From contig CAZQPC010000001.1 in the NCBI GenBank assembly GCA_964595005.1, positions 1 to 55,055 of the forward strand: 55,055 nucleotides of DNA, written 5' to 3'. This document shows positions 4,177-18,403 of the stretch, piece after piece (the stretch's first letter is position 1; each line of letters starts with the position of its first letter). The notes below the pieces were generated by a model that was given only the letters and a program-made list of their open reading frames with translations, made no database searches and had not been told where the DNA came from. The DNA is from an uncultured Magnetovibrio sp. GTDB taxonomy: Bacteria > Pseudomonadota > Alphaproteobacteria > Rhodospirillales > Casp-alpha2. The position numbers and the translations under genes were made by a program.

Positions 4177-7100
4177 GCCACCGCTGCCCGGGCCATCAAA
4201 TTTTCCAGAAGTGCGCGCGTGTCGTTGCGCCGCGGCCGCCAGAGGCCGCGTTCCTGGGCCTCGATAAGACGTTCGGTCATTTCCTTCAGGGCCTGCGGAT
4301 TATGATCTTCGAGAAACTGCCGGACCGTTTCGTCATCCAGGTAGGCGTCGAACACGGCGTCGAAGTGATGATCCTTCACGCAGCGCGCCGTGGCCTGGAA
4401 AGACACCATGTAGTCGACCGTCGCCGCCATCTCAAAGGCACCCTTGTAGCCGTGGCGCATGACGCCGTCGATCCACTTCGGATTGACCACCCGGGCCCGG
4501 ACGACGCGGGCGATCTCTTCATCCAAAGTGCGGGCGCGGGGCGTTTCAGGCCTGGCATGATCCATGTGATAGGTCGCCGGTTGCGCCCCGGCAAGGTGCC
4601 GCACCGCCGCCGTCATGCCGCCTTCGAACTGGTAGTAGTCGTCGGAATCCAACAGGTCGTGTTCGCGGTTGTCCTGGTTGTGAATAACGGCCTCGACGGA
4701 CTTCAGGCGCGTTTCGAACAGCCCGTGCTCCGCCGCGCCTTCGGCGCCCGATCCATAGGCATAGCCACCCCAGGCCACATAGGCGCGGGCGAGATCGGCG
4801 TCCGTATCCCAGCCTTTTTCATCCATCAGGGCCTGCAGACCGGCCCCGTAGGCGCCCGGCTTCGAGCCGAACACCCGGAAACCGGCGCGCGTTGCCGCCG
4901 CCGCTTCGTCCATGCCGCCGGCCATCAAAGCTGCCGTTTCCTCGCGCACCCGCCGAGCCGCCGGGTTGACCTCATCGCGTTCGTCCATTGCGGCCACGGC
5001 GCGGGCGGCGGAATCGAAGAGATCGATCAGGCCTGGGAAAGCATCGCGGAAGAAGCCCGACACCCGGAGCGTCACATCCACCCTAGGCCGGTCAAGCACG
5101 CTGGCCGGCATCACCTCGAACCCGGTAACCCGGCGGCTGGCCGTGTCCCAGGTGGGCTGCACACCCATCAAGGCCAGGCCTTGCGCGATGTCGTCACCGC
5201 CGGTGCGCATATTCGACGTGCCCCAGGCACTGAGCGCCATGGTCGTCGGCCAGGCGCCGTGATCCTGCATGTGGCGTTCGACCAACAAGCCGGCCGATTT
5301 CCAACCCAGTTGCCAGGCCGCCGGGGTTGGCACGGTGCGGGTATCGACGGAATAAAAATTGCGGCCCGTGGGCAGCACATCGGGCCGGCCACGGGTCGGC
5401 GCGCCCGACGTGCCGGGCTCCAGGAACCTGCCGGCCAGGGCCGTCGCGGCGCCGGTGATTTCCGCGTCGCCGCAGCGTTCCACGGCGGGCCGGATGACCG
5501 TATTCAGATGCTCAAGGACAGCCCGCGTGGCGGTCCATGTTGCTTCCATTTGGCGCGCACCGCCAACCAACGCGGCGGCCAGGTCTTCCAGACGTTCGAC
5601 CGTATCCCCGGCGCTGCGCCAGGGATCGTCGCCGCTCAGCGCATCCGGTTTCGGTCCGGCCCAGGTTGCCGCCATGTCGCAGTCCAGGGGATCAAAATCC
5701 AGGCCCAGGTCCTCTGCCAGGGCGCGGTGCAGAGACGCATGGGCGGCGTCCTCGGTGCCCCTGGGCACCCGCACCAGAGCAACCAGCAAGTCCGTCAGCA
5801 ACCGGCCTTCCGGGGCTTTGCCGAAAATATGCAGGCCGTCGCGGATCTGCATTTCCTTCAGCTCACAGAGATAATTGTCCAACTTGCCCAACGCCGCATC
5901 ATCGTCGTCGCCGTCTTCAATCCCGCAATCGGCATCCAGCCCCGTGGTGTGGCACAGCTCCAGAATATCGCGGGTCAGCACCTTCAGGCGCCTGGGATCG
6001 ACGCCCGACGCCTCGTAATATTCATCGACCAACTGCTCCAGATCTTTCAAGGGCCCGTAGCTTTCGGCCCGCGTCAGGGGCGGCGTCAGATGATCGACAA
6101 TGACCGCACTGGTACGGCGCTTGGCCTGCGTGCCTTCGCCGGGATCATTGACGATGAAGGGATAGATGTTGGGCATGGGCCCCAAGGCGGCCTCCGGGAA
6201 ACAGTCTTCCGACAGGGCCAGCGCCTTGCCGGGCAGCCATTCCAGATTGCCGTGCTTGCCGAAGTGGACGACGGCATGGGCACGGAATTCGTTGCGCAGC
6301 CAGGCGTGGAAGGCCAAATAGTTGTGCGGCGGCACCAGGTCCGGGTCGTGATATGTTTCCTTCGGATCAATGTTGTAGCCGCGCGCCGGCTGCAGGCAGA
6401 CCGCCACGTTGCCGAGGCGGAAGGCCGGCACCGCGAAGCGGCCGCAATCAACCTCGCCTTCGCGGTAAAAGGGATCGGTTTCCGGCGCGCCCCAGCGATC
6501 GGTGACGGCCTCTTGAACGGATTTCGGCAAACCGCCGAAGAAAATATGGTAGTCGGCCAGGGACAAGGTTTCAGAGATGTCCCGGCGATTAAGCTTTTCG
6601 AAGGCGTTGGTCGGCCCGGCCATGACCCGATCGATCAGCGCTTCGCCGTCGACCGGCACGTCGGTGACGCGATAACCTTCCGCACGCAGGGCCTTCAACA
6701 GCTCGATTGCACCGGCGGGCGTATCGAGGCCAACACCATTGCCCAGCCGGCCGTCCCGGTTCGGATAATTGGCGAGAATCAAAGCCACCCGACGGTCCGG
6801 CGCCTCCGTCGTCCGCACGGCCGCCCAGGCGGCCGCCAATTGGCAGACGAAGCTGACCCTGTCGGCGACGGGTTCGTAACGCACCATATCGGTTTCCGTC
6901 AGCGGATCACGGCGCACGCTGCCCTTGAAGGAGACAGCCCGGGTCAGCACCCGGCCATCGACCTCGGGCAGGGCGACGTTCATGGCGATGTCGCGGGCGC
7001 CGAGGCCCCGGGTGCCGGCGCGCCAGGCTTCTTCATTGCCGCCGGAAAATACCATTTGCAGGACCACCGGCGCACTGTCGATGTCAAACGGTCCGGCGGC

Positions 7101-7934
7101 GCGGTCCTGGCCCGGCGCCGAAACGGCGAAGCCCGTGGCGTTCAAGATCACCGCCGGCGGTGCATCGGCCAACAGCGTTTCCAGGGTGGCCGCCGCCACC
7201 GGGTCCTTGAGGCTGGCGACAAAAATCGGCAGCGGGTTCAATCCGGCCTCGGCAAGGCCCTCAATGACCGCTTCCACGGCCCAGAGATTTCCCGATTGAA
7301 CCAGGGCTCGGTAGAAAACCACAGCCGCCACGGGCCGCCCTTCGATCCAGTTCGACTGGACCCGGGCCAGATCCGTGTTCGCCGCGCCCGGCCAATGTAA
7401 GCCGGCCCGCACCAGGGGCCGAGGCTCCTGCCAATCCGCAGTATGACCTGTCAGGTCGGCGGCGTAGCTGATGAAATCCAGGGCATTTTCAGGCCCGCCG
7501 TGCACCAGATATTGCCAAAGGCGGTGCTGGGCATCGGCGTCCAGGGTCGACAGCGCCGCCAGTTCCGCATCCGGCTGATCGTCGCCGGGCAGGAAGGCGA
7601 CGGGAATGTTGTTGGCCTCGCAGGCCGCGGCCACCTGTTCACAGCCATAGGGCCAATAGCCGCGCCCGCCCAAGATGCGCAACACCACCAGCTTGGCTTT
7701 GGCGATGATGTCCTCGACGTAAAGATCGACGGACATGTTGTGCGCCAGATGCATCATGTTGGCGAGGCGCAAGACGGGGAATCCGTCAGCTGGCTGCTGG
7801 GCGCGGGCCTGGGCCAGCAGGGTCAATTCCGTATCGGCGGCAGAGATGACAACGATATCGCCGGGCGTCTGGCCCAGATCGACGGCTTCCGATCCGTCGG
7901 AGACGCCACCGGGTTGGGCGGCCAGGAGGTGCAT
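4173..7934 (-). CDS. cobN: cobaltochelatase large subunit CobN (aerobic pathway)
   Basis: About 1250 aa starting MHLLAAQPGGVSDGSEAVDLGQTPGDIVVISAADTEL, the usual CobN N-terminus. ATG at 7934 lies 1 nt after the cobW stop; the track ORF extends to 7991. Confidence 0.95.
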   Translation of the reverse strand: MHLLAAQPGGVSDGSEAVDLGQTPGDIVVISAADTELTLLAQARAQQPADGFPVLRLANMMHLAHNMSVDLYVEDIIAKAKLVVLRILGGRGYWPYGCEQVAAACEANNIPVAFLPGDDQPDAELAALSTLDADAQHRLWQYLVHGGPENALDFISYAADLTGHTADWQEPRPLVRAGLHWPGAANTDLARVQSNWIEGRPVAAVVFYRALVQSGNLWAVEAVIEGLAEAGLNPLPIFVASLKDPVAAATLETLLADAPPAVILNATGFAVSAPGQDRAAGPFDIDSAPVVLQMVFSGGNEEAWRAGTRGLGARDIAMNVALPEVDGRVLTRAVSFKGSVRRDPLTETDMVRYEPVADRVSFVCQLAAAWAAVRTTEAPDRRVALILANYPNRDGRLGNGVGLDTPAGAIELLKALRAEGYRVTDVPVDGEALIDRVMAGPTNAFEKLNRRDISETLSLADYHIFFGGLPKSVQEAVTDRWGAPETDPFYREGEVDCGRFAVPAFRLGNVAVCLQPARGYNIDPKETYHDPDLVPPHNYLAFHAWLRNEFRAHAVVHFGKHGNLEWLPGKALALSEDCFPEAALGPMPNIYPFIVNDPGEGTQAKRRTSAVIVDHLTPPLTRAESYGPLKDLEQLVDEYYEASGVDPRRLKVLTRDILELCHTTGLDADCGIEDGDDDDAALGKLDNYLCELKEMQIRDGLHIFGKAPEGRLLTDLLVALVRVPRGTEDAAHASLHRALAEDLGLDFDPLDCDMAATWAGPKPDALSGDDPWRSAGDTVERLEDLAAALVGGARQMEATWTATRAVLEHLNTVIRPAVERCGDAEITGAATALAGRFLEPGTSGAPTRGRPDVLPTGRNFYSVDTRTVPTPAAWQLGWKSAGLLVERHMQDHGAWPTTMALSAWGTSNMRTGGDDIAQGLALMGVQPTWDTASRRVTGFEVMPASVLDRPRVDVTLRVSGFFRDAFPGLIDLFDSAARAVAAMDERDEVNPAARRVREETAALMAGGMDEAAAATRAGFRVFGSKPGAYGAGLQALMDEKGWDTDADLARAYVAWGGYAYGSGAEGAAEHGLFETRLKSVEAVIHNQDNREHDLLDSDDYYQFEGGMTAAVRHLAGAQPATYHMDHARPETPRARTLDEEIARVVRARVVNPKWIDGVMRHGYKGAFEMAATVDYMVSFQATARCVKDHHFDAVFDAYLDDETVRQFLEDHNPQALKEMTERLIEAQERGLWRPRRNDTRALLENLMARAAVA

Positions 7935-7935
7935 G

Positions 7936-8976
7936 TCAGGCGGCGGCCAGGGCGCGCTCGATGCTGGCCCGATCAAGACCCGTTTCGCCAATCACCACCA
8001 GTTCCGTGGCGCGGGTTTCGCCGTCCGCCCAGGGCCGGTCGTAATAGCGCTGGACCCGGGCCCCGACGGCCTGCACCACGTGGCGCATATCCTTGCCCGG
8101 CACATGGATGAAGCCTTTGACGCGCAGGATGTCGTGATCCGCGGCGGCGGCCCGAATGCGGGTTTCCAAGGCCGCGGGGTCAGCGATATCGCCGAGGCTG
8201 ACAATGAAGCTTTCGAAATCATCGTGGTCGTGATCGTCTTCGTCGTCGTGATGCGATTTCCGGCCCTCGATGACATCCTCGACGCCGGCGCCGATGCCCA
8301 ACAGCACCTTCGGATCGATGGCGCCGTGAACCGCGTCGACCATCTTCACCTGGGCAGCAACTTCCGAGCGGACTTCGTCGCGCACGCCGTCCAAGGCTTC
8401 GCCGTCAAGAAGATCGCTCTTGTTCAGCAACACCATATCGGCGCACAGCAATTGATCTTCAAAGACTTCTTCCAGGGGCGAATCGTGGTCCAACATATCA
8501 TCGGCCTCACGGACCGCCTGCACGGCGTCCGGGTCTTCGGCGAACTGTCCGGCGGCGACGGCTGGCGCATCGACCACGGCGACGACGCCGTCGACGGTAA
8601 CCCGGGAGCGGATTTCCGGCCAATTGAAAGCTTTTACCAAGGGTTTGGGCAGGGCCAAACCTGAAGTTTCGATGACGATGTGCTCGGGCGGGTCGGGCCG
8701 GTCAAGAAGCGCTTCCATGGTCGGCAGGAAATCATCGGCGACCGTGCAGCAGATACAGCCGTTGGCAAGTTCCACGACGTTGTCGTCCTCGCATCCTTCA
8801 ATGCCGCAGCCGGTAACTAATTCGCGGTCAATGCCCAGATCGCCGAATTCGTTGATGATCAGGGCGATACGCTTGCCGGCGGCATTTTCCAGCATGTGCC
8901 GGATGACCGTGGTCTTGCCGGCACCCAAAAACCCGGTAATGACGGTGGCGGGAATCTTGCCTGTTTGTGGGCTCAT
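7936..8976 (-). CDS. cobW: cobalamin biosynthesis GTPase/metallochaperone CobW (G3E family)
   Basis: P-loop GFLGAGKTT, CICC metal motif (NGCICCTV), His/Asp-rich stretch HHDDEDDHDHDD. Located next to cobN. Confidence 0.9.
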   Translation of the reverse strand: MSPQTGKIPATVITGFLGAGKTTVIRHMLENAAGKRIALIINEFGDLGIDRELVTGCGIEGCEDDNVVELANGCICCTVADDFLPTMEALLDRPDPPEHIVIETSGLALPKPLVKAFNWPEIRSRVTVDGVVAVVDAPAVAAGQFAEDPDAVQAVREADDMLDHDSPLEEVFEDQLLCADMVLLNKSDLLDGEALDGVRDEVRSEVAAQVKMVDAVHGAIDPKVLLGIGAGVEDVIEGRKSHHDDEDDHDHDDFESFIVSLGDIADPAALETRIRAAAADHDILRVKGFIHVPGKDMRHVVQAVGARVQRYYDRPWADGETRATELVVIGETGLDRASIERALAAA

Positions 8977-9509
8977 GACGTTTCGTCCTTCAGGATTTGC
9001 GGCAGGCCGGCGGTCACCAGGACAACGCGGTTGGCCAACTTCGCCACCAGTTGATTGAGTTCGCCCTGGGCATCGAGGAATAACCGCGACACGTGATTGT
9101 CGGGCACCACGCCCAGGCCGATCTCGTTTGATACGAAAACCACGGGCCCCCGTAAAGCCCCGGATTGCAACAGCTCCGTCAATTTCTGGATTTCTTCGCC
9201 GGCTTTCATGTCATGGAACAGCAAATGCGACAGCCAAAGCGTCAGGCAGTCGACCAGAATCGGCCGGTCCGGCCGGGCTTCGCGGGCCAGCACGGCGGGG
9301 ACCTCGCGCGGCTCTTCAATGGTCTCCCATATCTCGCCGCGCCGGGCCCGGTGTTTTTCGATGCGGGCCGCCATTTCATCGTCCATGGCTTCCGCCGTTG
9401 CCAGATAGAGACCGCGGCCCTGGGCTTCCACCAGTTCTTCGGCGTAGCGGCTTTTGCCGGACCGCGCCCCACCAAGGACCAGGCTGATCAGGGGCAACGG
9501 CGTGCTCAC
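8973..9509 (-). CDS. cobU: bifunctional adenosylcobinamide kinase / adenosylcobinamide-phosphate guanylyltransferase (Salmonella CobU, P. denitrificans CobP)
   Basis: GTG at 9509 gives VSTPLPLISLVLGGARSGKSRYAE with a P-loop, about 179 aa. The upstream 108 codons of the track ORF are Arg/His/Pro-rich junk overlapping cobC. Confidence 0.9.
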   Translation of the reverse strand: MSTPLPLISLVLGGARSGKSRYAEELVEAQGRGLYLATAEAMDDEMAARIEKHRARRGEIWETIEEPREVPAVLAREARPDRPILVDCLTLWLSHLLFHDMKAGEEIQKLTELLQSGALRGPVVFVSNEIGLGVVPDNHVSRLFLDAQGELNQLVAKLANRVVLVTAGLPQILKDETS

Positions 9510-10159
9510 CGTATGGTCCCGTCGTTTTTGCCGCCGGATGTTTGATTGATGCCGGCAATACGCCAGGCGCCGCCCTTGCCGCGCAACAATCCACCCTCGA
9601 CATGTTCCAAGCGCGTCATGGACAGGGTATCGATGGTAAACGACATGCCCAGTTCCGGGGACAGGCCGAGGACGTGGGCGACAGCGGCACGGATCGTGCC
9701 GCCGTGGCAGACGGCGACGATGTCGCGGCCCGCATGATCCGCCGTGTAGCGCTCGATGATGGTGCCGGTGCGGGCGATCAGATCGGCGAAGCTCTCGCCG
9801 CCCGGCGGCGCGCTGTGAGCCGGGGCCTGCCAAAAGGCAAAATAAGCATCCGGATCGGCTTCTTGCATCTCACTCCAGCTTGAGCCCTGCCAATCGCCGA
9901 AATCCTGTTCGCCCAAATGTTCCTCGATTATGGGTGTTGGATAGGTAAGGCCGGCGCCGCCGATGGCCGCGGCCGTCAACTTGGCACGGCTCAGGTGCGA
10001 CGTCAGCCATATGCCGTCGCCGGGCAATGCACCGGCCAATACCTCGAAAGACGCCGTGTCGGAGGTATCACAGGCGACATCATCGGAGCCATAAATCTTG
10101 CCGGTCATGCCAACCACGGGGGCGTGGCGGACAAACCACCAGCGCGTTACGGTACTCAT
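9506..10159 (-). CDS. cobC: histidine-phosphatase family protein, probable alpha-ribazole phosphatase
   Basis: ATG at 10159 gives MSTVTRWWFVRHAPV (RH motif) and a later CHGGTIRA. Lies between cobS and cobU with 4-nt overlaps. Confidence 0.75.
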   Translation of the reverse strand: MSTVTRWWFVRHAPVVGMTGKIYGSDDVACDTSDTASFEVLAGALPGDGIWLTSHLSRAKLTAAAIGGAGLTYPTPIIEEHLGEQDFGDWQGSSWSEMQEADPDAYFAFWQAPAHSAPPGGESFADLIARTGTIIERYTADHAGRDIVAVCHGGTIRAAVAHVLGLSPELGMSFTIDTLSMTRLEHVEGGLLRGKGGAWRIAGINQTSGGKNDGTIR

Positions 10160-10986
10160 GAAGCAAAAACTCCGGCGGCAATGAGAACGGCGGCCTCGGC
10201 GGCCTGTTGGGCGGCGCCCAGAACGTCGCCCGTATAGCCGCCGAGGCGGCGATGGGCAAGCCAGCCGACCATGCCAACGGCACATATGGCCATCAACAGG
10301 GCCAGCACCGCCGGCTGCCAATTCATCAAGACAAACGCCGCAACGATGCTCAAACCCAACGCCTGGTAGACGGTCACGGCATCCGGCCGGCCCGCGTCGC
10401 GGCCCAATCCGTCGGCCCGCGCCGGTTTCAGGCCCAGCATGACCATGGGCACGGCGCCGCGCGATACGGCGGCGGCGGTGACCATTGCCGCGGCGGCCAG
10501 TCCCGGCCCTAAAAACCCGGCCAAGATCGCGGCCTTCAAGGCGATGCTGAAGATCAACGCCAACACGCCGAAGGTCCCGGTCCGCGAATCGCGCATGATC
10601 TCCAGGCGCCGCGCCCGGTCGCCGGCACCCATGCCGTCGGCGAAATCGGCCAGGCCATCTTCATGCAAGGCGCCGGTGATCCAGGCACCCGCAGCCAATC
10701 CGATCACGGCGCAAGCCAAGGGGTGCAAATTGATCTGCGCGCCCAGCCACAACCCGCCGCCGGCGACAGCCCCAACTAGCAATCCAATCAACGGAAAGGC
10801 GCGACCCGCCGGCCCCAGATCGGCCATGGATAGGGGCGCCGCCGGCTTGAAGGGCAAGCGCGTCAGAAAAGCGCCAGCCACCGCAATATCGCGGCCCCAT
10901 CCTACAAATAGGCGCTGCAGAGGATTTTGTTCGCGTTCCTGTTCCACGCGCCGATGGTAGTAGATTGGCCCATAAAGGAAAGGCAT
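10156..10986 (-). CDS. cobS: adenosylcobinamide-GDP ribazoletransferase (cobalamin synthase; Salmonella CobS, P. denitrificans CobV)
   Basis: Polytopic membrane protein with the AFLTRLP motif near the N-terminus. The start may be downstream of 10986. Confidence 0.88.
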   Translation of the reverse strand: MPFLYGPIYYHRRVEQEREQNPLQRLFVGWGRDIAVAGAFLTRLPFKPAAPLSMADLGPAGRAFPLIGLLVGAVAGGGLWLGAQINLHPLACAVIGLAAGAWITGALHEDGLADFADGMGAGDRARRLEIMRDSRTGTFGVLALIFSIALKAAILAGFLGPGLAAAAMVTAAAVSRGAVPMVMLGLKPARADGLGRDAGRPDAVTVYQALGLSIVAAFVLMNWQPAVLALLMAICAVGMVGWLAHRRLGGYTGDVLGAAQQAAEAAVLIAAGVFAS

Positions 10987-11044
10987 GGCGACAACGTTTC
11001 ATTGGCCATGGACAAGTCCCTTCGAGGCTGCGAAGTTGCCGCTC

Positions 11045-12079
11045 ATGACAGCCAAGACAACCGCTCAATCACCGGATAGTTTGGCCGGCCTCCGAGACCT
11101 GCTGGCGGATTTGCCGGGGCCCGACGAGGCCGCGCGGGCGCGCGGCCTGGAGCGCGAACCGCAGTTGACCAAGCCGCCCGGGTCCTTGGGCCGCCTGGAA
11201 ACCATTACCCATTGGCTGGCCGCCTGGCAGGGCCGCCATCCGCCGGCCGCCGAAACCATCGCGGTGCGCGTCTTCGCCGGCAATCACGGTGTCGTGGCAC
11301 GCGGCGTATCCGCCTATCCGGCCGAGGTCACGGCGCAAATGGTCGGCAACTTTCTCACCGGCGGGGCAGCCGTCAACCAGTTGTGTGAAAGCGTCGGCGC
11401 GTCCCTGGACGTGATCGCCATTGATCTCGACAAACCCACCGCCGACTTTACCAAGGCCCCGGCCATGACCGAACCCGAATTCATGGACGCCATCGGCCGT
11501 GGCATGGCCGCCGTGCCCGACGACGCCGATATCCTGTGCGTCGGTGAAATGGGTATCGGCAACACGACCAGTGCGGCGGCGCTGTGCATGGGTCTCTACG
11601 GCGGTGGTGCCGCAGACTGGACCGGGCCGGGCACGGGTGTCACCGGGGATGCCTACGATATCAAGGTGCAAGTGGTCGGTGACGCCGTGCGCCATCACGC
11701 GCCGCATCTGGCCGACGGCCTGAAGGCCTTGCAACGCCTTGGCGGCAGGGAACTGGCGGCCATGGCCGGTGCGATCATCCAGGCCCGCCTGCAACGGGTG
11801 CCGGTATTGCTTGACGGCTACATGGCCGGCGCCGTCGCCGGCGCCTTGAAAGCCGCCCGGCCTGACGTCCTGGATCATTGCCTGGCGGCCCACGTGTCCG
11901 CCGAACCGGGCCATCGCCGGCTGCTCGACATCCTTGAGATGGAACCGCTGTTGGATATGAACATGCGCCTGGGCGAAGCGTCCGGGGCCGCCTTGGCGGT
12001 CAGCATCATCAAGGCCGCCTGTGCCTGTCACAACGGCATGGCGACTTTCGCCGAAGCCGGCGTCAGCGATAAAGACTGA
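11045..12079 (+). CDS. cobT: nicotinate-nucleotide--dimethylbenzimidazole phosphoribosyltransferase (Salmonella CobT)
   Basis: LTKPPGSLGRLE and GEMGIGNTT motifs. ATG at 11045 gives about 345 aa; an alternative ATG lies at 10985. Confidence 0.9.
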   Translation: MTAKTTAQSPDSLAGLRDLLADLPGPDEAARARGLEREPQLTKPPGSLGRLETITHWLAAWQGRHPPAAETIAVRVFAGNHGVVARGVSAYPAEVTAQMVGNFLTGGAAVNQLCESVGASLDVIAIDLDKPTADFTKAPAMTEPEFMDAIGRGMAAVPDDADILCVGEMGIGNTTSAAALCMGLYGGGAADWTGPGTGVTGDAYDIKVQVVGDAVRHHAPHLADGLKALQRLGGRELAAMAGAIIQARLQRVPVLLDGYMAGAVAGALKAARPDVLDHCLAAHVSAEPGHRRLLDILEMEPLLDMNMRLGEASGAALAVSIIKAACACHNGMATFAEAGVSDKD

Positions 12080-12135
12080 TCCGGGTTTGCTTTGATCAGC
12101 TGGCTGATATTTCGGCCAGATTGCGGCGTCCAACT

Positions 12136-13410
12136 TCAGTTCCGCTCAATCCGCCGCTTCAGGCGCAACATTTCCCGGCGCCGGTTGTCTTCAGCGATGA
12201 GGTTTTCCACGAACCGGCCCTGGAACTGCTCAATGCCGACGGATTTACCGAAATCGATGGCTTCGCGGTTGTCGCAACGGATGAGCACAAATTTGTCCGC
12301 GCCCTCTTCGTCGACGACGCGTTTCAAAAGGCTGTGCACCTCTTCGCCGCCGTCGACCAATTCCGGGTCCCAGACCAGTTTGGTCAAGTCGATGCCAAGG
12401 CGTTCGCGGTGGATCATGGTCAGGGTCTCCAGGGTGACGCCGTCCATACACACCCGGTAACCCTTGTCTTGAACAAATTCTCGGGCGAATACGTAGGATG
12501 ACAGGTTGGAGAAGATATCCTCCTTCTGCAGTTCGATGATCATCTGGCCGCGCCGCGACGCCGCAATGTTGTCGTCGAAGGACTGAAACTCCTTCGACAG
12601 CAGGGTCGCGATATTGACGTTGAAACTGATCTCCCCGGAGATCGAAATGCTGTCGGTTTTGGTCAACATGGACAGCATGCGCCGGTCGAGCGTCTCCGTG
12701 AGATGCTGGAACAGCCACCGGTTGGCGGTCAGGTTGACGCCAGGCAACAGCGTTTCGCGCAGATCAGAGATCGAAATGAACAATTCGCTGAAGGTTTGGG
12801 TCGGCACCAGTTTGGAATCGACGGCACAGACAAACTGGCGCCGCGCCAAATTCGAAAGATCGGCCCGGATGAGCGCCGTTTCGACCCTGGCCAGAACATC
12901 CGGGGTCAGCGGCTCACCCTGTTTCTGTTTGGCCTTCAGAGCGGAGCGGGCATCCATGCGCGACCGCACGGCGGCCTGACGCTCCTGTTCCGACTGGGCC
13001 ATGCCCTGGACCAATTGAAGAAAGTTGTCGTAATCGGTGGCCGCATCATACCAGGTGGCGAAATTCTGGGTCTGTATGTCCTCTTCGGCAACCAGCGGAT
13101 CATCGTCGAACAGATACTTGATCTTCTGAACGATGGTTTCCACCCCGGCCTGGGCTTCGCTCTTGAAGATGAAATAGATATCGGAGTTCTTCATGGTGAA
13201 CAGTTGCCCGGTCATATCGGAAACCAGGGCGTCGAAATTACTGGCCGCGGCGCGGATGTGCTGATCACGGCGGTTGAAGGGCCTGAGGGCGGACAGATGC
13301 AAGATGACCACCTTGCGGCCGTCCTTGTGCTTCTCCAGGCGGCGCACATAATCCAACAACAGGTTTTCCTGGCTGGGAAGGCGCTTTTTACCGTCGGAAC
13401 GATCAGCCAT
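12136..13410 (-). CDS. stand-alone degenerate GGDEF-like + degenerate EAL-like protein (function unknown)
   Basis: ATG at 13410. The N-terminal half follows the GGDEF-domain pattern (VVILHLSALRPFNRRDQH...LFTMKNSDIYFIF) with KNSDI in place of GGDEF. The C-terminal half follows the EAL pattern (FSELFISI, ISFNVN, IIELQKED, RVCMDG, QGRF) with several catalytic positions replaced. Confidence 0.65.
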   Translation of the reverse strand: MADRSDGKKRLPSQENLLLDYVRRLEKHKDGRKVVILHLSALRPFNRRDQHIRAAASNFDALVSDMTGQLFTMKNSDIYFIFKSEAQAGVETIVQKIKYLFDDDPLVAEEDIQTQNFATWYDAATDYDNFLQLVQGMAQSEQERQAAVRSRMDARSALKAKQKQGEPLTPDVLARVETALIRADLSNLARRQFVCAVDSKLVPTQTFSELFISISDLRETLLPGVNLTANRWLFQHLTETLDRRMLSMLTKTDSISISGEISFNVNIATLLSKEFQSFDDNIAASRRGQMIIELQKEDIFSNLSSYVFAREFVQDKGYRVCMDGVTLETLTMIHRERLGIDLTKLVWDPELVDGGEEVHSLLKRVVDEEGADKFVLIRCDNREAIDFGKSVGIEQFQGRFVENLIAEDNRRREMLRLKRRIERN

Positions 13411-13411
13411 G

Positions 13412-14680
13412 TTATGCCGTCCCGCCGGTGGAGCGCGGACTGCGGCCGCCACCGATCACTTGCACCAGTTTATCGATGAAGAACCCCTGAAATCGGCTGA
13501 TCCCAAGGCTGAGGCCCCATTTTACGGCTTTTTCCGAATCGACGCGGCCGAGGATCATGGTATCGCGACCGGCCTTCGCGATGACCTCGCGCATCTCCTG
13601 CAAACGGCTTTCCTCCTCATCGCCTGTAAACTCAGGCCCCCAGGAAATCTTGATGAAATCGGAGCGCAGGTCGGCCGGTTCGAAATATTGCAAAGACAAG
13701 GGATTGAGGCCGTCGACAACGACGCGATAGCCGCGTTGTTGCAGGGAATCCCTGGCATAAACATAATTCCTCATGTCGGCGAAAATGTCGATGATCTGAA
13801 ATTCGACGATGACTTTCGACATGTGGCCGTCGACGGCGCGGTGAAAATTCTGAAAATCCCGTGACAGAACCGTCGAAATATTCAGATTGATGCTCAAAGG
13901 CTCGGTAATTTCGGAGAAATCCTCCTCCACGAGCACAGCCAGAACCCGCCGATCGAGGGTCTCCGTCAGATATTGAAACAACCATGGACTGGCAAACAGA
14001 TTGACGTCGGGGGCAACGCGTTCCTTGATATCGGCAATCGACAAAAACAATTCGAAAAACACCAGGTCGCCGCCGCCGCCGGATTTCACCTGAAGACAGG
14101 CCTGGCGCTTGATCATATCGGCGACCCGCATGCCCTGAAGGCTTTTATTAATTTCGCTCAGGTTCGACGGCCCCAGCGGCTCACCCAGTTGTTGTTCTTT
14201 GTCGGCGCGGGCCGTTTCCGCCGCCTGGATTTGTTCGGCTTCCACGGCCAGGTCGGTGATGACCGCGAAAAAGGCGGCAAAATCCTCGGGGTTCGACAGG
14301 TCATACCAAGTTGAGAACGCATCATCGAAGGCGTTCTCATCTAATTCCGTCAGCGGGTCTTCGCTGAACAGGCCCCGTACTTTCTCAACGGCACCATCCA
14401 CGTCGTCGACATCGACGTTGCGGCAGATCAGTGCCAAATCTTTGTTGGTCAGGGAAAAAAGCGTCGCATCATTGTTGTCCACCAAGATGTCGAAGGTCCT
14501 GGCGGCAATCTCGATGAAGTGCCCTTGTTTGTGGTTGGGCCGAAGTTTGGAAAGGTTCAAGTGGACGACGAAATACCCGGCCGCATTGGACTCGATCCGG
14601 TTCAGACGGGTGAGTAGAAGCGATTCCTCCGTGTCGTCGAGGTCGTTGGCACCTGCCGCAGCGTTGCCCCATTCAGCCAT
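13412..14680 (-). CDS. paralogous degenerate GGDEF-like + EAL-like protein (function unknown)
   Basis: Clear paralogue of 12136..13410 (shared LFQ[HY]LTETLDRR, NL/NV, QG[RF]F). TNKDL replaces GGDEF and FELF replaces EAL. The stop lies 1 nt before the downstream ATG. Confidence 0.65.
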   Translation of the reverse strand: MAEWGNAAAGANDLDDTEESLLLTRLNRIESNAAGYFVVHLNLSKLRPNHKQGHFIEIAARTFDILVDNNDATLFSLTNKDLALICRNVDVDDVDGAVEKVRGLFSEDPLTELDENAFDDAFSTWYDLSNPEDFAAFFAVITDLAVEAEQIQAAETARADKEQQLGEPLGPSNLSEINKSLQGMRVADMIKRQACLQVKSGGGGDLVFFELFLSIADIKERVAPDVNLFASPWLFQYLTETLDRRVLAVLVEEDFSEITEPLSINLNISTVLSRDFQNFHRAVDGHMSKVIVEFQIIDIFADMRNYVYARDSLQQRGYRVVVDGLNPLSLQYFEPADLRSDFIKISWGPEFTGDEEESRLQEMREVIAKAGRDTMILGRVDSEKAVKWGLSLGISRFQGFFIDKLVQVIGGGRSPRSTGGTA

Positions 14681-14840
14681 TCGCTATCCCAAAATCCCCA
14701 TGTGCCACGCCGCGTGCCGCACCTTTGCTAAGGTGCCACGAAAGTTAGACCGGAACCATTAAATTTCGATTATCACCGAATATGGGAACAAACCGGAATC
14801 ATCTCATAATTCTGTAAGGTTGGCATGAATAATAGACCCC

Positions 14841-15599
14841 ATGAGATTGAATGCGCGCCGCTTGGAAACGGATTTCGAGGCCCTGCCGCCAAGGGTCCCG
14901 GCGGGCACGCGCGTCTACGCCATTGGCGATATTCATGGCCGGCTGGACCTTTTGGAAGACATTCACAGGCTGATCTTGGCCGATTGCGTCGATGGCCCCG
15001 GGCATCAGGTCCTCGTCTATTTAGGCGACTACATTGATCGCGGTCAGCATTCCTTCGGCGTTGTCGATGCCCTCATCCACGACCCCCTGCCCAACTTTCA
15101 AATCGTCCACTTGAAGGGCAACCATGAGGACTTCCTGCTGCGCTTCGTGGAAACCGGTGAACAGGGCGAAAACTGGCTGTTCAATGGCGGCGTGACGACG
15201 TTTAACAGTTACCGCACCAGCGGCGCCTCGATGGCCGATCTGTATGGCGATATGGATAATCTGCGGGATGCCCTGATTGAGGTTCTGCCGCCGGCCCACC
15301 TGGCGTTCTATCGGCGTTTGGCGATGACGCACAGCGAAGGCGACTATCTGTTCGTTCACGCCGGCATTCGACCGGGCATTCCCGTATCGCACCAGAAAGA
15401 TGACGATCTCATATGGATAAGAGGCCCATTTCTGCACACGGACGAGGATTTTGGCCAGGTCGTCGTGCACGGTCACACCCCCGAATTTGAGCCTGTCATC
15501 CGACATAACCGCATCGGCGTCGATACCCAGGCCTACCGAAGCGGCTGCCTGACCTGTCTGGTTCTGGAAGGCGAACAACGCCGGTTCTTGCAGACCTGA
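14841..15599 (+). CDS. PPP-family metallophosphoesterase (PrpA/ApaH-like Ser/Thr protein phosphatase)
   Basis: GDIHG, GDYIDRG, GNHE, VHAG and HGH motifs in the canonical order. Confidence 0.85.
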   Translation: MRLNARRLETDFEALPPRVPAGTRVYAIGDIHGRLDLLEDIHRLILADCVDGPGHQVLVYLGDYIDRGQHSFGVVDALIHDPLPNFQIVHLKGNHEDFLLRFVETGEQGENWLFNGGVTTFNSYRTSGASMADLYGDMDNLRDALIEVLPPAHLAFYRRLAMTHSEGDYLFVHAGIRPGIPVSHQKDDDLIWIRGPFLHTDEDFGQVVVHGHTPEFEPVIRHNRIGVDTQAYRSGCLTCLVLEGEQRRFLQT

Positions 15600-15613
15600 A
15601 CCGAACTCCCGTC

Positions 15614-15648
15614 GCCCGGCGTTTCCCGATTGCCCGGCGTTTGCCGGG
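15614..15648 (+). repeat. 11-bp direct repeat GCCCGGCGTTT x2; the second copy forms the hairpin CCCGGC-GTTT-GCCGGG
   Basis: Copies at 15614-15624 and 15632-15642, hairpin at 15633-15648, in the phosphatase/UXS intergenic region. No U-tract follows. Confidence 0.35.
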
Positions 15649-15664
15649 GTGCTAAACCCAATTC

Positions 15665-16609
15665 ATGCATGAACGTTCCCGTATTCTCGTCACCGGCGGT
15701 GCTGGATTCATCGGTTCCCATCTGTGCACCCGGCTGGTTGCCGAGGGCAACGATGTCATTTGCCTGGACAATTTTTTCACCGGCACCAAGGACAATATTT
15801 CGCCGCTCCTGGGCGATCCGCATTTCGAATTGATGCGCCACGATGTGACCTTTCCGCTTTACGTGGAGGTCGATCAGATTTTCAATCTGGCTTGCCCGGC
15901 CTCACCGGTGCATTACCAGCACGATCCGGTGCAAACCACCAAGACCAGTGTCCACGGCGCCATCAACATGCTGGGCCTGGCGAAACGCACGAAGGCGCGC
16001 ATTCTGCAGGCGTCGACCAGCGAGGTCTACGGTGATCCCAAGGTTCACCCGCAGCCCGAAACGTATGCCGGCAACGTCAATCCCATCGGCCCCAGGTCGT
16101 GTTATGACGAGGGCAAGCGCTGCGCGGAAACACTATTTTTCGATTACAAGCGCCAGCACGACATGAGCATCCGCGTGGCCCGTATCTTCAACACCTATGG
16201 CCCCAACATGCATCCCAGCGACGGCCGCGTCGTCTCCAACTTCATTGTCCAGGCCTTGAAGGGCGAACCGATCACCATTTACGGTGACGGCACCCAGACC
16301 CGGTCGTTTTGTTATGTCGATAACCTGGTCGAAGGGTTGATCCGACTGATGAACGCGGATGACGTGACGGGACCCGTGAACCTGGGCAACCCCGGTGAAT
16401 TCACGATCCGCGAACTGGCCGAATTGGTGATCGCCGAAACGGACACCGGATCGGAAATGGTCTTCAAGCCCTTGCCCGAGGACGATCCCATGCAGCGCTG
16501 TCCGGATATTTCCCTAGCCAAGGAAGTGCTGGATTGGGCGCCCGATATTGCCTTGGCCGACGGGCTCAGAAAAACCATCGCCTATTTCAAGAATGCGATC
16601 GATGCCTAA
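15665..16609 (+). CDS. UDP-glucuronate decarboxylase (UDP-xylose synthase), extended SDR
   Basis: GGAGFIGSH Rossmann motif, YDEGK catalytic Y-x3-K, overall UXS-like sequence ([13 protein letters not shown]). Confidence 0.88.
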
Positions 16610-16612
16610 GCC

Positions 16613-18403
16613 TTAGACAGCGCCCGTTTGGGCCGCATAAACGCGTTTCGCCCAGCCCCTGAGACCGGGCTCGCGGTTGTCGTTGACGCCGCCGCCGGCT
16701 TGCCACAACCAACGTTCCACGGGCACGAAAAATCCAGTTTTCGGCCTGTTCAGAATATCCGGCGGCAAGGCTGGAAGCGGCGTTGACGCCATATCGCGTT
16801 TGCCGGGACCGGCCGATGTGCCGAGCACCGGCGCCAGGGCCTTGAACAGATCGACATCGACAAACGGCACCCTGATCTCCAGAGAATGGGCCATGCCGGC
16901 CCAGTCGGCGTCGCGCAGCAACTGATTTTGCATGTACCAGTTCATTTCCAGGGCACGAACCCGGTTCTCGGCGGCGCCAATGCCATCGATGCCGACCTCA
17001 AGGCGGACCAGCGGTGCCAGCTGGTTCCAGCCGTCGGCGGCCAGTTCCGGGTCCATGACGTCGGCCAGTTCCCAGGGCATGAAAAGGCCGCGCCGCAACA
17101 GATAGGCGCCAGCCATGGAGCCACCGAACTCAAACAGGCTGGCGTATTTTGCCGAAATCATCGGTCCCATCGCCGGGACCACGGCTTTGCGGAACAATCG
17201 CCCAACCGTCTCGAGGCCTGGAATCCACCCTAACCCGGCGGCCAGACGCGGCACTTGGCGAAAACTGTCATAGCCGCTGAACAATTCGTCGCCGCCAAGG
17301 CCCGAAAGTGCGACCTTGAGCCCGCCGTGGGCGGCGACCCGGGCGACGAAGTAGGTATTCACCCCGTCGATGGTCGGCTGGTCCATGCATTTCAGAAGAT
17401 CCGGCAAGGCGCCGTCGAAATGCAATCGCGCGACGCGCTCCGTCAACTGCGTCGTTTCGTAGCGTTTCGCCATCAGTTCCGCCAGCGGCACTTCGTCGCG
17501 GTCGGTGCCGACGAACTCCTCAAACCCAAGGGTGAAGGTGCGCAGTTCGCCCTGCTCGCTCTCTGCGGCCAGGGCCGTGATGGTCGACGAATCGAGGCCG
17601 GCCGACAAAAACACACCGACCGGCACATCGGCGACGAAATGGTGGCGGACACTGTCCAACAAAAGGTTCCGAAGATTGGGCGCTTCGGCTTGGTCATCGG
17701 CGTCGGCTAGAATTTCACCGGCATCAAAATACCGCACCAGATGCCGCCCGCCATCGGCATTGACGGTGAGTGAGTGGCCTGCCGGCAGCGCCTCGATATC
17801 AGCATAAAGCGTATGTGGCTCGGGGACGCTGCCAAACAGGAAGAACCCCACATGGCCGGCCGGATCGGGCCCTGTGTTGCCGGCCCGGCCGGTCGCCAAC
17901 AGGGCTTTGACCTGTGAGGCCGTGCGCAATGTCTTTCCGTCATCGGCCAAATAGAGGGGCTTGATGCCGAAAGGATCGCGGGCCAAGAACAGGCGCCGTT
18001 CAACGGAATCCCAGATGACCAGGGCAAACATGCCGCGCAGTTTCTCGACCATGGCGGCACCGTGGCGCTCGTAGAGGCGCAACAGGACTTCGGTATCCGA
18101 TTGGGTGACAAAGCGAACCCCGGCACTGACCAAGGCGCTGCGCAGCGCCCGGTAATTGTAAATCTCGCCGTTGAAGGTGATATGGAACCGGCCGTCGATA
18201 TTCATCGGCTGGTTGGCACGCGGGTCCGGGTCAATGATCGCCAGGCGCCGGTGCGCCAACCCGACGCGGCTGTCGTCGGAAATCCAATGCCCGCCGCCGT
18301 CCGGGCCCCGCCGGATCATCGCCTTGTTGATTTCCAACAACTCACCCAGCGCAACCGGCGGTGCGTCGGCATGATAGGCGAACAGGGCAGCGATTCCGCA
18401 CAT
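16613..18403 (-). CDS. asparagine synthase (glutamine-hydrolysing) family amidotransferase
   Basis: MCGI N-terminal nucleophile Cys2. PP-loop-like FLSAGLDSS. About 596 aa. Confidence 0.88.
   Translation of the reverse strand: MCGIAALFAYHADAPPVALGELLEINKAMIRRGPDGGGHWISDDSRVGLAHRRLAIIDPDPRANQPMNIDGRFHITFNGEIYNYRALRSALVSAGVRFVTQSDTEVLLRLYERHGAAMVEKLRGMFALVIWDSVERRLFLARDPFGIKPLYLADDGKTLRTASQVKALLATGRAGNTGPDPAGHVGFFLFGSVPEPHTLYADIEALPAGHSLTVNADGGRHLVRYFDAGEILADADDQAEAPNLRNLLLDSVRHHFVADVPVGVFLSAGLDSSTITALAAESEQGELRTFTLGFEEFVGTDRDEVPLAELMAKRYETTQLTERVARLHFDGALPDLLKCMDQPTIDGVNTYFVARVAAHGGLKVALSGLGGDELFSGYDSFRQVPRLAAGLGWIPGLETVGRLFRKAVVPAMGPMISAKYASLFEFGGSMAGAYLLRRGLFMPWELADVMDPELAADGWNQLAPLVRLEVGIDGIGAAENRVRALEMNWYMQNQLLRDADWAGMAHSLEIRVPFVDVDLFKALAPVLGTSAGPGKRDMASTPLPALPPDILNRPKTGFFVPVERWLWQAGGGVNDNREPGLRGWAKRVYAAQTGAV

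What the first reader, a model, noticed from the sequence alone, without database searches (positions are those of the whole stretch)
12136..14680. Tandem, translationally coupled paralogues that look like sensor-less, doubly degenerate GGDEF-EAL proteins
Seen: two ORFs of about 420 aa separated by 1 nt (TAA at 13414-13412, ATG at 13410). They are clearly paralogous (LFQ[HY]LTETLDRR, S[IF]N[LV]N, QG[RF]F). The N-terminal halves follow the GGDEF-domain pattern (h-h-h-L-x-L-S-x-L-R-P...) but carry KNSDI or TNKDL where GG[DE]EF should be. The C-terminal halves follow the EAL-domain order: Q-x...F-[SF]-E-L-F for EAL, the N of the NLS motif, the E of ExxE, one D of DDFG, K, and QG. The EGVE glutamate is lost (RCDN/GRVD), as are other metal ligands. 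There is no TM, PAS, REC or other input domain. Established: degenerate GGDEF-EAL modules such as LapD and FimX bind c-di-GMP without turning it over. Inference: a heteromeric c-di-GMP (or related nucleotide) receptor pair. A duplicated, stand-alone and tightly coupled arrangement is not one I know as characterised.
Basis: partly seen in the sequence, partly recalled or inferred. Interest (0 to 1): 0.65.

Follow-up and report, generated by a model that had tools for sequence, protein, structure and literature searches.

The report
Paired degenerate GGDEF-like/EAL-like proteins
Two adjacent, related genes encode sensor-less proteins built like the enzymes that make and break the bacterial signal c-di-GMP but lacking half of the catalytic metal site, so they most likely bind the signal rather than destroy it; they belong to a large, unstudied family, which is of moderate interest.

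Summary
Two minus-strand ORFs (A: 13412-14680, 422 aa; B: 12136-13410, 424 aa) are separated by one base (TAA-C-ATG). They are paralogues (36% identity over 398 aa, E 3e-81).

The C-terminal halves are EAL-fold domains. The Pfam EAL match is sub-threshold but significant, and Foldseek E-values reach 1e-14. The N-terminal halves give no GGDEF sequence signal. Their predicted fold ranks GGDEF domains first, but weakly (E 0.03-0.2).

The four M1-site positions (E210, N265, E293, D323), K344 and Q398 are kept in about 97-100% of 142 divergent family members. The M2-site positions are lost throughout: the second D of DDFG is G, the EGVE glutamate is a small residue followed by a near-invariant Arg, and the KxD aspartate is variable.

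In all 74 related genomic loci with enough downstream DNA, A is followed by B (gaps -4 to 63 nt in the 68 measured). One natural A-B fusion exists. Single-copy relatives exist, for example in Azospirillum. No member carries a functional name.

Best reading: a non-hydrolysing, probably heteromeric nucleotide (c-di-GMP?) receptor pair. This is a new variant of a known kind. Ligand binding and heteromer formation are untested.

The parts
13412..14680 (-). Gene A (422 aa): N-terminal GGDEF-like domain, long linker helix, and an EAL-like domain with half a metal site. This is the faster-evolving, derived paralogue.
   Evidence: ORF list. AlphaFold pLDDT 84.7. Foldseek top hits are GGDEF-EAL proteins, E 1.7e-14. 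A-type sequences form a clean clade of 43/43 in an NJ tree.
14291..14632 (-). A residues 17-130: ferredoxin-like alpha/beta domain with element order a0-b1-a1-a2-b2-b3-a3-b4. TNKDL lies at the b2-b3 hairpin where GG[DE]EF sits. It has no GG[DE]EF motif and no RxxD motif.
   Evidence: Model of residues 1-168: pLDDT 86, pTM 0.78. Foldseek ranks 1-28 are nearly all GGDEF domains but E>=0.03. No PF00990 hit. hhalign register is low-confidence. S44, D81, F105, D108 and P109 are >=95% conserved in both paralogue families.
14114..14290 (-). A residues 131-189: long helix (131-164) plus a short helical linker that joins the two domains.
   Evidence: Secondary structure of the AlphaFold models. This segment is more conserved in B (0.72) than in A (0.51).
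13451..14113 (-). A residues 190-410: EAL-like (beta/alpha) barrel. Kept: Q193, E210, N265, E293, D323, K344, D381, Q398. Lost: Arg of EALxR (S214), second Glu of ExxE (I296), second Asp of DDFG (G324), Asp of KxD (S346), first Glu of EGVE (G378, followed by near-invariant R379).
   Evidence: Pfam EAL residues 204-402, E 4.6e-7. hhalign to PdeL and an E. coli EAL profile, E 2.8e-5 against a control of 0.56. MAFFT alignment with E. coli EAL proteins. Conservation in 142 representatives.
13410..13414 (-). Junction TAA-C-ATG: stop codon of A, one base, start codon of B.
   Evidence: Sequence read directly.
12136..13410 (-). Gene B (424 aa + stop): same two-domain architecture as A. It is the more conserved paralogue and looks closer to the ancestral form.
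   Evidence: BLASTP A vs B, E 3e-81. B orthologues are 52-84% identical against 45-82% for A in the same loci. Tree.
13036..13374 (-). B residues ~13-125: GGDEF-like domain, with KNSDI at the hairpin.
   Evidence: Aligned full-length with A. Not modelled separately.
12196..12846 (-). B residues ~189-405: EAL-like domain with the same kept and lost positions as A (E209, N264, E293, D323-G324, K344, R378, D380, Q397).
   Evidence: Pfam EAL E 0.006. Family conservation. Alignment.
12139..12195 (-). B residues 406-424: conserved Arg-rich C-terminal helix (AEDNRRREMLRLKRRIERN). It is specific to B-type proteins and is a candidate output or interaction element.
   Evidence: Alignment of tails from 33 B orthologues. 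B-specific conserved positions R410-R423.
14681..14840 (.). 160-bp AT-richer intergenic region shared with the divergently transcribed metallophosphoesterase gene. This is the presumed promoter region of the A-B operon.
   Evidence: Sequence. No Rfam match at E<=1. No consensus promoter found in this region. The metallophosphoesterase neighbour was found by tblastn in 49 of 80 loci, divergently oriented.

Best explanation
**What it is.** A and B are paralogous, sensor-less pseudo-enzymes of the GGDEF-EAL lineage. Each has a very diverged, truncated GGDEF-like domain with no catalytic or I-site motif. Each also has an EAL-fold domain that keeps the residues which hold the first metal ion and contact the nucleotide, but lacks every residue that holds the second, catalytic metal.

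**How it most likely works.**
1. Each EAL-like pocket binds a phosphodiester nucleotide, with c-di-GMP the obvious candidate, through one divalent metal.
2. The ligand is not hydrolysed, or only very slowly.
3. A and B work together as a heteromer, through the usual EAL-EAL interface and/or the long linker helices.
4. Ligand occupancy is passed on by protein-protein contacts. The B-specific Arg-rich C-terminal helix is a candidate output element.

**Shown.** The fold of the EAL half, the pattern of kept and lost residues, its conservation across the family, and the conserved tandem arrangement.

**Inferred.** The GGDEF ancestry of the N-terminal domain, ligand identity, lack of turnover, heteromer formation, and the output.
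For: **Architecture.**
- The AlphaFold model has pLDDT 84.7.
- Foldseek's best matches are GGDEF-EAL proteins aligned over ~440 columns: MorA 4rnf at 1.7e-14, RbdA, PA0575, LapD and DosP.
- EAL-only structures (FimX, YkuI, YahA) score 1e-9 to 1e-7.
- All 32 aligned members hit Pfam EAL.

**Half-site, from alignments to E. coli PdeL/DosP/PdeH/PdeI/PdeG.**
- Kept: E210 = E of EAL, N265, E293 = first E of ExxE, D323 = first D of DDFG, K344, Q398.
- Lost: G324 = second D, position 346 = D of KxD, G378 = first E of EGVE.

**Conservation in 142 representatives sharing at most 50% identity.**
- Kept positions: E210 140/142, N265 140, E293 138, D323 141, K344 140, Q398 142.
- Lost positions: G324 in 130; position 378 is C/A/S/T/G; R379 in 121 (His in 16).
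- The same positions are >=95% conserved in both the A and B families.

**Literature.** In PA3825 the M2 metal is held by Asp161 (second D of DDFGTG), Asp183 and Glu217 (PMC5301497). These are exactly the positions lost here.

**Pairing.**
- A is followed by B in all 74 loci that have room downstream.
- Gaps are -4 to 63 nt, median 10.
- P0121 fuses a complete A-type protein to a B-type EAL half.
- Both paralogues are under strong constraint.

**Family size.** 1744 clusters at E<=1e-3 and 715 at E<=1e-30.
Against: - No binding, activity or interaction data exist for any member (literature searches).
- E. coli BluF keeps the same E, N, E, D, K and Q positions. It has no phosphodiesterase activity and acts by protein-protein contact (PMC3509220 abstract). 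Kept residues alone therefore do not prove ligand binding.
- The Arg of EALxR is Ser/Ala here. However, the active PdeH also lacks it.
- No diguanylate cyclase, PilZ gene or c-di-GMP riboswitch lies in the window or in the 80 loci, apart from one GGDEF gene in L009.
- Single-copy relatives exist (L087, Azospirillum), so a heteromer is not required for the family's basic function.
- The GGDEF assignment has no sequence support.
Confidence: 0.5

Rival explanations
1. Ligand-independent regulators. The EAL-like fold is used only as a protein (or RNA) interaction scaffold, as in YdiV/RflP, BluF or CsrD, and the pocket residues are structural.
For: BluF retains E, N, E, D, K and Q yet works by binding BluR (PMC3509220). 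The only NCBIfam hits are weak ones to CsrD (E 4.6e-4 for B). B carries a conserved Arg-rich C-terminal helix that could bind a partner or nucleic acid. There is no c-di-GMP gene context.
Against: The six pocket positions are 97-100% conserved across 142 clusters that share as little as ~26% identity overall. That is hard to explain without a ligand or metal. CsrD and RflP have lost several of them: NQ or GN in place of DD, Q for N in CsrD, M for K in RflP.
Confidence: 0.2
2. Atypical but active phosphodiesterases. The near-invariant Arg/His at position 379 substitutes for the second metal, so the proteins still hydrolyse c-di-GMP or pGpG, possibly only as an A-B dimer.
For: A complete M1 site and the catalytic Lys are retained. 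R379 (His in 16 of 142) sits next to where the EGVE glutamate would be. Active PdeH tolerates loss of the EALxR Arg and the KxD Asp. Dimerisation controls EAL activity in known enzymes (PMC5301497).
Against: The second Asp of DDFG and the EGVE Glu are both absent. From general knowledge of RocR and TBD1265 mutagenesis (not checked here), each is required for activity. The DDFGTG loop that moves into the active site is replaced by DG[LV]xP.
Confidence: 0.15
3. Receptor or enzyme for a different phosphodiester ligand. Candidates are another cyclic or linear dinucleotide, a dinucleoside polyphosphate, or a guanine-nucleotide intermediate of cobamide nucleotide-loop assembly.
For: The synteny block is conserved: PPP-family metallophosphoesterase (weak PrpA/ApaH-like hits) on one side and cobT-cobS-cobC-cobU on the other. 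cobT stays close by even in single-copy relatives. Family-specific invariant residues (W233-L234-F235, D243, N267, D298, W347, R379) indicate a remodelled pocket.
Against: The cob genes are convergent, not co-transcribed. The Azospirillum homologue sits between rnd and ppk instead. The metallophosphoesterase is missing from about 30 of 80 loci. The block may only reflect slow genome rearrangement in this lineage.
Confidence: 0.12

Closest known systems
LapD (Pseudomonas fluorescens / Vibrio cholerae), degenerate GGDEF-EAL c-di-GMP receptor
   Same: Both have a GGDEF-like plus EAL-like tandem with neither domain catalytically competent. LapD is among the best structural matches (6pwk/6pwj/3pjw, E 1e-12 to 1e-10). 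It is the only PDB sequence found by the family profile (E 0.048). In LapD the EAL domain is the ligand-binding module.
   Different: LapD is a membrane protein with periplasmic and HAMP/S-helix input-output modules, and its GGDEF domain is still recognisable by sequence. A and B are soluble, have nothing N-terminal to the GGDEF-like domain, come as a conserved pair, and keep the full M1 set.
FimX (Pseudomonas / Xanthomonas), REC-PAS-GGDEF*-EAL* c-di-GMP receptor
   Same: A degenerate EAL domain is used to bind c-di-GMP. Foldseek gives E 1e-9 and TM 0.6 relative to the FimX EAL domain (4fok, 4foj).
   Different: FimX lacks the DDFGTG motif needed for metal coordination (PMC5301497) and binds its ligand without metal. 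It also has REC and PAS domains. A and B keep E/N/E/D, so binding here would probably depend on a metal.
BluF (YcgF), RflP (YdiV) and CsrD of E. coli: EAL-like proteins that act by macromolecular contacts
   Same: Degenerate EAL domains without phosphodiesterase activity. BluF shows the same kept positions, with DH in place of DD and M in place of the EGVE Glu.
   Different: BluF has a BLUF sensor and CsrD has TM/HAMP-like modules. RflP and CsrD have lost several M1 and Lys positions. None of them is a conserved tandem paralogue pair.
Canonical EAL phosphodiesterases (PdeL/YahA, PdeH, RocR, TBD1265, PA3825)
   Same: Same barrel fold and the same order of signature positions: Q...E...N...E...D...K...Q.
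   Different: The M2 ligands and the DDFGTG loop are missing. The Pfam score is below the gathering cut-off for both window proteins.

Membership tests
EAL domain (Pfam PF00563) | Profile-HMM match at or above the curated gathering score (31.3 bits) | tested here: not met
   A scores 29.9 bits (E 4.6e-7) and B 16.4 bits (E 0.006). All 32 aligned members match at some level, best E 1.4e-9. Homology is therefore clear, but these are divergent members.
EAL domain (Pfam PF00563) | EAL-type (beta/alpha) barrel fold | tested here: met
   AlphaFold pLDDT 84.7. Foldseek E 1e-9 to 1e-7 with TM ~0.6 relative to isolated EAL domains (FimX, MorA, YahA, YkuI), and 1e-14 to GGDEF-EAL proteins.
Catalytically competent EAL phosphodiesterase | M1-site residues (E of EAL, N, first E of ExxE, first D of DDFG), catalytic K, and Q of QG | tested here: met
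   E210, N265, E293, D323, K344 and Q398 are identified by hhalign and MAFFT. They are present in 138-142 of 142 representatives. The assignment of these residues to M1 comes from general knowledge of EAL structures.
Catalytically competent EAL phosphodiesterase | M2-site residues (second D of DDFGTG, D of KxD, E of EGVE) and the DDFGTG loop | tested here: not met
   G324 in 130/142. Position 346 is I/V/F/H/A. Position 378 is C/A/S/T/G. The loop reads DG[LV]xP. M2 ligands are as described for PA3825 in PMC5301497.
GGDEF domain (Pfam PF00990) | Profile-HMM match | tested here: not met
   No PF00990 hit at E<=10 in any of 32 members. hhalign against a profile of nine GGDEF domains (eight from E. 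coli, one from locus L009) gives E 0.011, no better than the control with the EAL half (0.018).
GGDEF domain (Pfam PF00990) | GGDEF / nucleotidyl-cyclase-like fold | tested here: inconclusive
   Isolated-domain model: pLDDT 86, pTM 0.78. No Foldseek hit at E<=0.001, but nearly all of ranks 1-28 are GGDEF domains (E 0.03-0.2, TM 0.3-0.4). The element order a0-b1-a1-a2-b2-b3-a3-b4-a4 fits. The elements after a4 are absent.
GGDEF domain (Pfam PF00990) | GG[DE]EF active-site motif and RxxD inhibitory site | tested here: not met
   TNKDL (A) and KNSDI (B) occupy the hairpin. The family consensus is x-N-[GSD]-D-[LI]. There is no Arg at the RxxD position (DNNDA in A).
Degenerate GGDEF-EAL c-di-GMP receptors (LapD/FimX type) | Specific c-di-GMP binding by the EAL domain without turnover | not testable with these tools
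   Needs DRaCALA, ITC or a PDE assay.
Degenerate GGDEF-EAL c-di-GMP receptors (LapD/FimX type) | Input or output modules attached (HAMP/periplasmic domain in LapD; REC-PAS in FimX) | tested here: not met
   Nothing precedes residue ~17. Pfam finds no other domain.

The most novel reading that the evidence does not exclude
The family is a distinct class of 'half-site' EAL proteins. A single retained metal plus a near-invariant Arg/His (R379) forms a dedicated sensor pocket for a ligand other than c-di-GMP, or for c-di-GMP read out in a new way. In the duplicated lineages, an obligate A-B heterodimer couples ligand occupancy to nucleic-acid or partner binding through the Arg-rich tail of B. That would be a soluble, sensor-less signalling module with no characterised counterpart.
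Probability: 0.12. Interest if true: 0.7.

Novelty: new variant of a known kind. Interest (0 to 1): 0.4.

Why it matters
Degenerate GGDEF-EAL proteins are a main route by which bacteria read c-di-GMP, yet only a few have been worked out (LapD, FimX, CsrD, BluF).

This is a large family: at least 1744 clusters at 50% identity. It is common in marine and soil relatives of the Rhodospirillales, including the cultivable genus Azospirillum. Databases label its members 'hypothetical' or generic 'EAL domain' proteins.

Its near-perfect conservation of one metal site, with consistent loss of the other, gives a clear and testable prediction: metal-dependent binding without hydrolysis. The conserved A-B pair offers a natural case for asking how EAL-EAL dimers are used for signalling rather than catalysis.

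If instead the proteins prove active, that would bear on whether EAL catalysis needs the second metal-site residues.

Tried and rejected
**Sequence searches of the PDB.** Single A, single B and the family profile returned only chance hits or a marginal LapD hit (E 0.048).

**NCBIfam.** Only weak CsrD-model hits, far below cut-off.

**PADLOC defence models.** Nothing for A, B or the neighbouring phosphoesterase.

**Rfam.**
- Whole window at gathering thresholds: no RNA family.
- The A upstream region at E<=1: no RNA family, so no c-di-GMP or cobalamin riboswitch.

**Promoter and terminator scan.** Counts are at the level of shuffled sequence.

**Canonical GGDEF/EAL genes nearby.** Searched the window and 83 loci with motif patterns and E. 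coli-derived HMMs. Found only one GGDEF gene, in L009.

**hhalign of the N-terminal domain against GGDEF profiles.** Not distinguishable from the control.

**Literature.** Three searches for a characterised stand-alone or paired degenerate GGDEF-EAL in Alphaproteobacteria found nothing relevant. Two key papers were not held in the library: the Römling review and Rao 2008 on RocR.

**Cluster look-ups.** Divergent representatives gave only 'hypothetical' or 'EAL domain-containing' names.

**Gene context as a functional clue.**
- Considered because the sugar/cobamide block is conserved.
- The genes are divergent or convergent to A-B, and the Azospirillum copy sits in a different context.
- I therefore do not build the mechanism on context.

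**A-B heterodimer prediction.** Not possible. The tool folds single chains and reports no interface measures.
Full report
**1. The observation**

- The window carries two minus-strand ORFs. A is 13412-14680 (422 aa, ATG). B is 12136-13410 (424 aa from the ATG at 13410).
- The junction reads ACG GCA TAA C ATG GCT, so one base separates the stop of A from the start of B.
- An in-frame GTG at 13452 could extend B by 14 aa. Orthologues align from the ATG.
- The two proteins are clear paralogues: BLASTP 36% identity, 59% positives over 398 aa, E 3e-81.

**2. What the domains are: the C-terminal half**

- Pfam finds only EAL (PF00563). A residues 204-402 score 29.9 bits (E 4.6e-7, gathering score 31.3). 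B scores 16.4 bits (E 0.006).
- All 32 members of an alignment of divergent relatives hit EAL, best E 1.4e-9.
- An AlphaFold model of A built on that alignment is confident: pLDDT 84.7, with residues 1-15 and 411-422 disordered.
- Foldseek against the PDB puts GGDEF-EAL dual-domain proteins first, each aligned over about 440 columns: MorA 4rnf (E 1.7e-14), RbdA 5xgb, PA0575 5m3c, LapD 6pwk/3pjw and DosP.
- Isolated EAL domains follow at 1e-9 to 1e-7, with TM about 0.6 relative to the target (FimX, YkuI, YahA, MorA-EAL).
- The C-terminal half is therefore an EAL-fold domain beyond reasonable doubt.

**3. What the domains are: the N-terminal half**

- No member hits GGDEF (PF00990) at E<=10.
- hhalign of the family's N-domain against a profile of nine GGDEF domains (eight from E. 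coli, one from locus L009) gives E 0.011. The negative control (the EAL half against the same profile) gives 0.018, so there is no sequence signal.
- I modelled residues 1-168 alone (pLDDT 86, pTM 0.78) and searched the PDB.
  - No hit reaches E 0.001.
  - Nearly all of ranks 1-28 are GGDEF domains: CC_0091, DgcR, DosP, WspR, PleD, DosC, SadC, LapD and others (E 0.03-0.2, TM 0.3-0.4).
- The order of elements is a0(18-30)-b1(36-41)-a1/a2(53-69)-b2(72-76)-b3(82-87)-a3(91-104)-b4(123-127)-a4(131-164). This matches a GGDEF core truncated after a4.
- There is no GG[DE]EF motif and no RxxD site.
- I call it GGDEF-like. That is plausible from fold and architecture but unproven.

**4. The catalytic-site pattern**

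I took E. coli K-12 EAL proteins as references and aligned them with A, B and relatives (hhalign; MAFFT).

| Signature position in active EAL enzymes | Residue in A | Status |
|---|---|---|
| E of EAL | E210 | kept |
| R of EALxR | S214 | lost |
| N | N265 | kept |
| first E of ExxE | E293 | kept |
| second E of ExxE | I296 | lost |
| first D of DDFG | D323 | kept |
| second D of DDFG | G324 | lost |
| K of KxD | K344 | kept |
| D of KxD | S346 | lost |
| first E of EGVE | G378 | lost |
| G of EGVE | R379 | replaced by Arg |
| second E of EGVE | D381 | kept as an acid |
| Q of QG | Q398 | kept |

- Q193 probably equals the Gln of the N-terminal YQP motif, given a 3-residue longer hairpin. This is inference.
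- Across 142 representatives that share at most 50% identity with one another:
  - Kept positions: E210 140/142, N265 140, E293 138, D323 141, K344 140, Q398 142, Q193 136.
  - Lost positions are lost consistently: G324 in 130; position 378 is C/A/S/T/G; position 346 is hydrophobic or His.
  - Arg379 is present in 121 and His in 16.
- Both paralogue families keep the same set at >=95%.
- In PA3825 the M2 metal is bound by Asp161 (second Asp of DDFGTG), Asp183 and Glu217, and Asp160 bridges M1 and M2 (PMC5301497).
- The family has therefore kept what is, from general knowledge of EAL structures, the M1 site plus the Lys, and has lost the whole M2 site.
It also sets these proteins apart from FimX, which lacks the DDFGTG motif altogether (PMC5301497).
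- Among the E. coli degenerate proteins:
  - CsrD and RflP/YdiV have lost several of these positions.
  - BluF keeps E, N, E, D, K and Q yet acts through protein contact (PMC3509220).
  - This is a warning that retention alone does not prove binding.
- The active enzyme PdeH lacks both the EALxR Arg and the KxD Asp, so those two losses count for little.

**5. Distribution and the pair**

- A word-indexed search found 494 relatives. The listed ones that carry an organism name are almost all Rhodospirillales-type metagenome-assembled genomes, labelled 'hypothetical' or 'EAL domain-containing'.
- An exhaustive HMM search found 1744 clusters at E<=1e-3 and 715 at E<=1e-30. Nearly all are 400-440 aa and match end to end.
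- The species-representative genome collection held 156 loci, of which 80 were retrieved.
- In every one of the 74 loci with room downstream, an A-type gene is followed on the same strand by a B-type gene.
- Gaps range from -4 to 63 nt (median 10; 27 of 68 are at most 5 nt; 9 overlap).
- B is the better conserved partner: 52-84% identity to the window's B, against 45-82% for A.
- In a neighbour-joining tree, A-type sequences form one clean clade (43/43) nested among B-type and unclassified members. A therefore looks like the derived copy. The tree's deep branches are short and poorly resolved.
- Single-copy relatives exist:
  - L087 has one copy within 13 kb.
  - Azospirillum brasilense Sp7 plasmid p1 has one copy (26% identity to B, E 1e-37; profile E 7e-69) with the same motif set.
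  - The Azospirillum clade is named only 'hypothetical' or 'EAL domain-containing'.
- One protein, P0121 (712 aa), fuses a complete A-type protein to the EAL-like half of a B-type protein. This modestly supports a physical or functional A-B link.

**6. Context**

- The block is UDP-glucuronate-decarboxylase-like epimerase, PPP-family metallophosphoesterase (divergent), A-B, then cobT (convergent)-cobS-cobC-cobU. It recurs in most loci: cobT in 54 of 80, the epimerase in 59, the phosphoesterase in 49.
- cobT stays nearby even in single-copy relatives, where a histidine kinase and a REC-HTH_8 regulator intervene.
- In Azospirillum the neighbours are aspS, rnd and ppk.
- None of these genes is co-oriented with A-B.
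- No riboswitch or other Rfam family is present.
- No canonical GGDEF or EAL gene lies nearby, except one in L009.
- No defence-system model matches.
- Context therefore gives no firm functional lead.

**7. Mechanism**

- Best-supported reading (confidence about 0.5): each EAL-like pocket binds a phosphodiester nucleotide, most simply c-di-GMP, through one metal and does not hydrolyse it. A and B act together, probably as a heterodimer. The signal passes to unknown partners.
- The B-specific Arg-rich C-terminal helix LIAEDxRRRxLL[KR]LKRR[IM]ER is a candidate output element.
- Shown: the fold, the residue pattern and its conservation, and the pairing.
- Inferred: the ligand, lack of turnover, the heteromer and the output.
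- Rivals:

| Rival | Confidence |
|---|---|
| Ligand-free scaffold of the BluF/YdiV/CsrD kind | 0.2 |
| Atypical active phosphodiesterase in which Arg/His379 replaces M2 | 0.15 |
| A different ligand | 0.12 |

**8. Comparison and novelty**

- The proteins work most like LapD/FimX-type degenerate GGDEF-EAL receptors. They fail several membership features:
  - no attached input or output module;
  - a GGDEF-like domain that sequence methods cannot recognise;
  - a retained M1 site.
- They belong to the EAL superfamily by fold, but they are not competent EAL enzymes by residue content.
- I found no characterised member and no precedent for a conserved stand-alone tandem pair. The literature library is incomplete.
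- I rate this as a new variant of a known kind, with interest about 0.4. It is a large, tidy, testable orphan family rather than a surprise.

Noticed in passing
window 12139-12195 (B residues 406-424); orthologues in L001-L080: B-type proteins end in a strongly conserved Arg-rich helix (LIAEDxRRRxLL[KR]LKRR[IM]ER), often followed by an acidic tail. A-type proteins instead have variable Lys/Pro/Ala-rich tails, up to ~150 aa in L013, L015 and L019.
   Followed up: partly
protein P0121 (712 aa; from the representative search): Apparent natural fusion of a complete A-type protein with the EAL-like half of a B-type protein, whose N-domain has been deleted. It could be genuine or an assembly artefact.
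   Followed up: partly
window 8973-18403; loci L001-L080: The gene order epimerase/UXS - metallophosphoesterase <> A-B >< cobT-cobS-cobC-cobU is conserved across genomes whose A proteins are only 45-80% identical. In single-copy relatives (L084, L087) a histidine kinase and a REC-HTH_8 regulator sit between the family gene and cobT.
   Followed up: partly
L089 (Azospirillum brasilense Sp7 plasmid p1, 495924-509042), gene at 5881-7170: A single distant family member (26% identity to B) lies between rnd (RNase D) and ppk. It is unannotated in the plasmid table, gives no Pfam hit at E<=1e-5, and is named 'hypothetical protein' across Azospirillum. It offers a cultivable, genetically tractable entry point.
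   Followed up: partly
window 12001-17000: G+C is 54-60% across A, B, the phosphoesterase and the epimerase, against 64-67% in the adjacent cob genes (9-12 kb). Conserved synteny argues against recent transfer. The cause was not examined.
   Followed up: no
L084 260-1572: The copy upstream of P0221 is split into 334-aa and 121-aa overlapping ORFs. This is a frameshift: either a decaying A-type copy or a sequencing error. The same split is called in two other contigs (L085, L086).
   Followed up: partly
window 12092-14762, + strand: Several long antisense ORFs (for example 12703-13479, 258 aa, and 14199-14762, 187 aa) overlap A and B. I take them to be the usual by-product of high G+C content and did not treat them as genes.
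   Followed up: no
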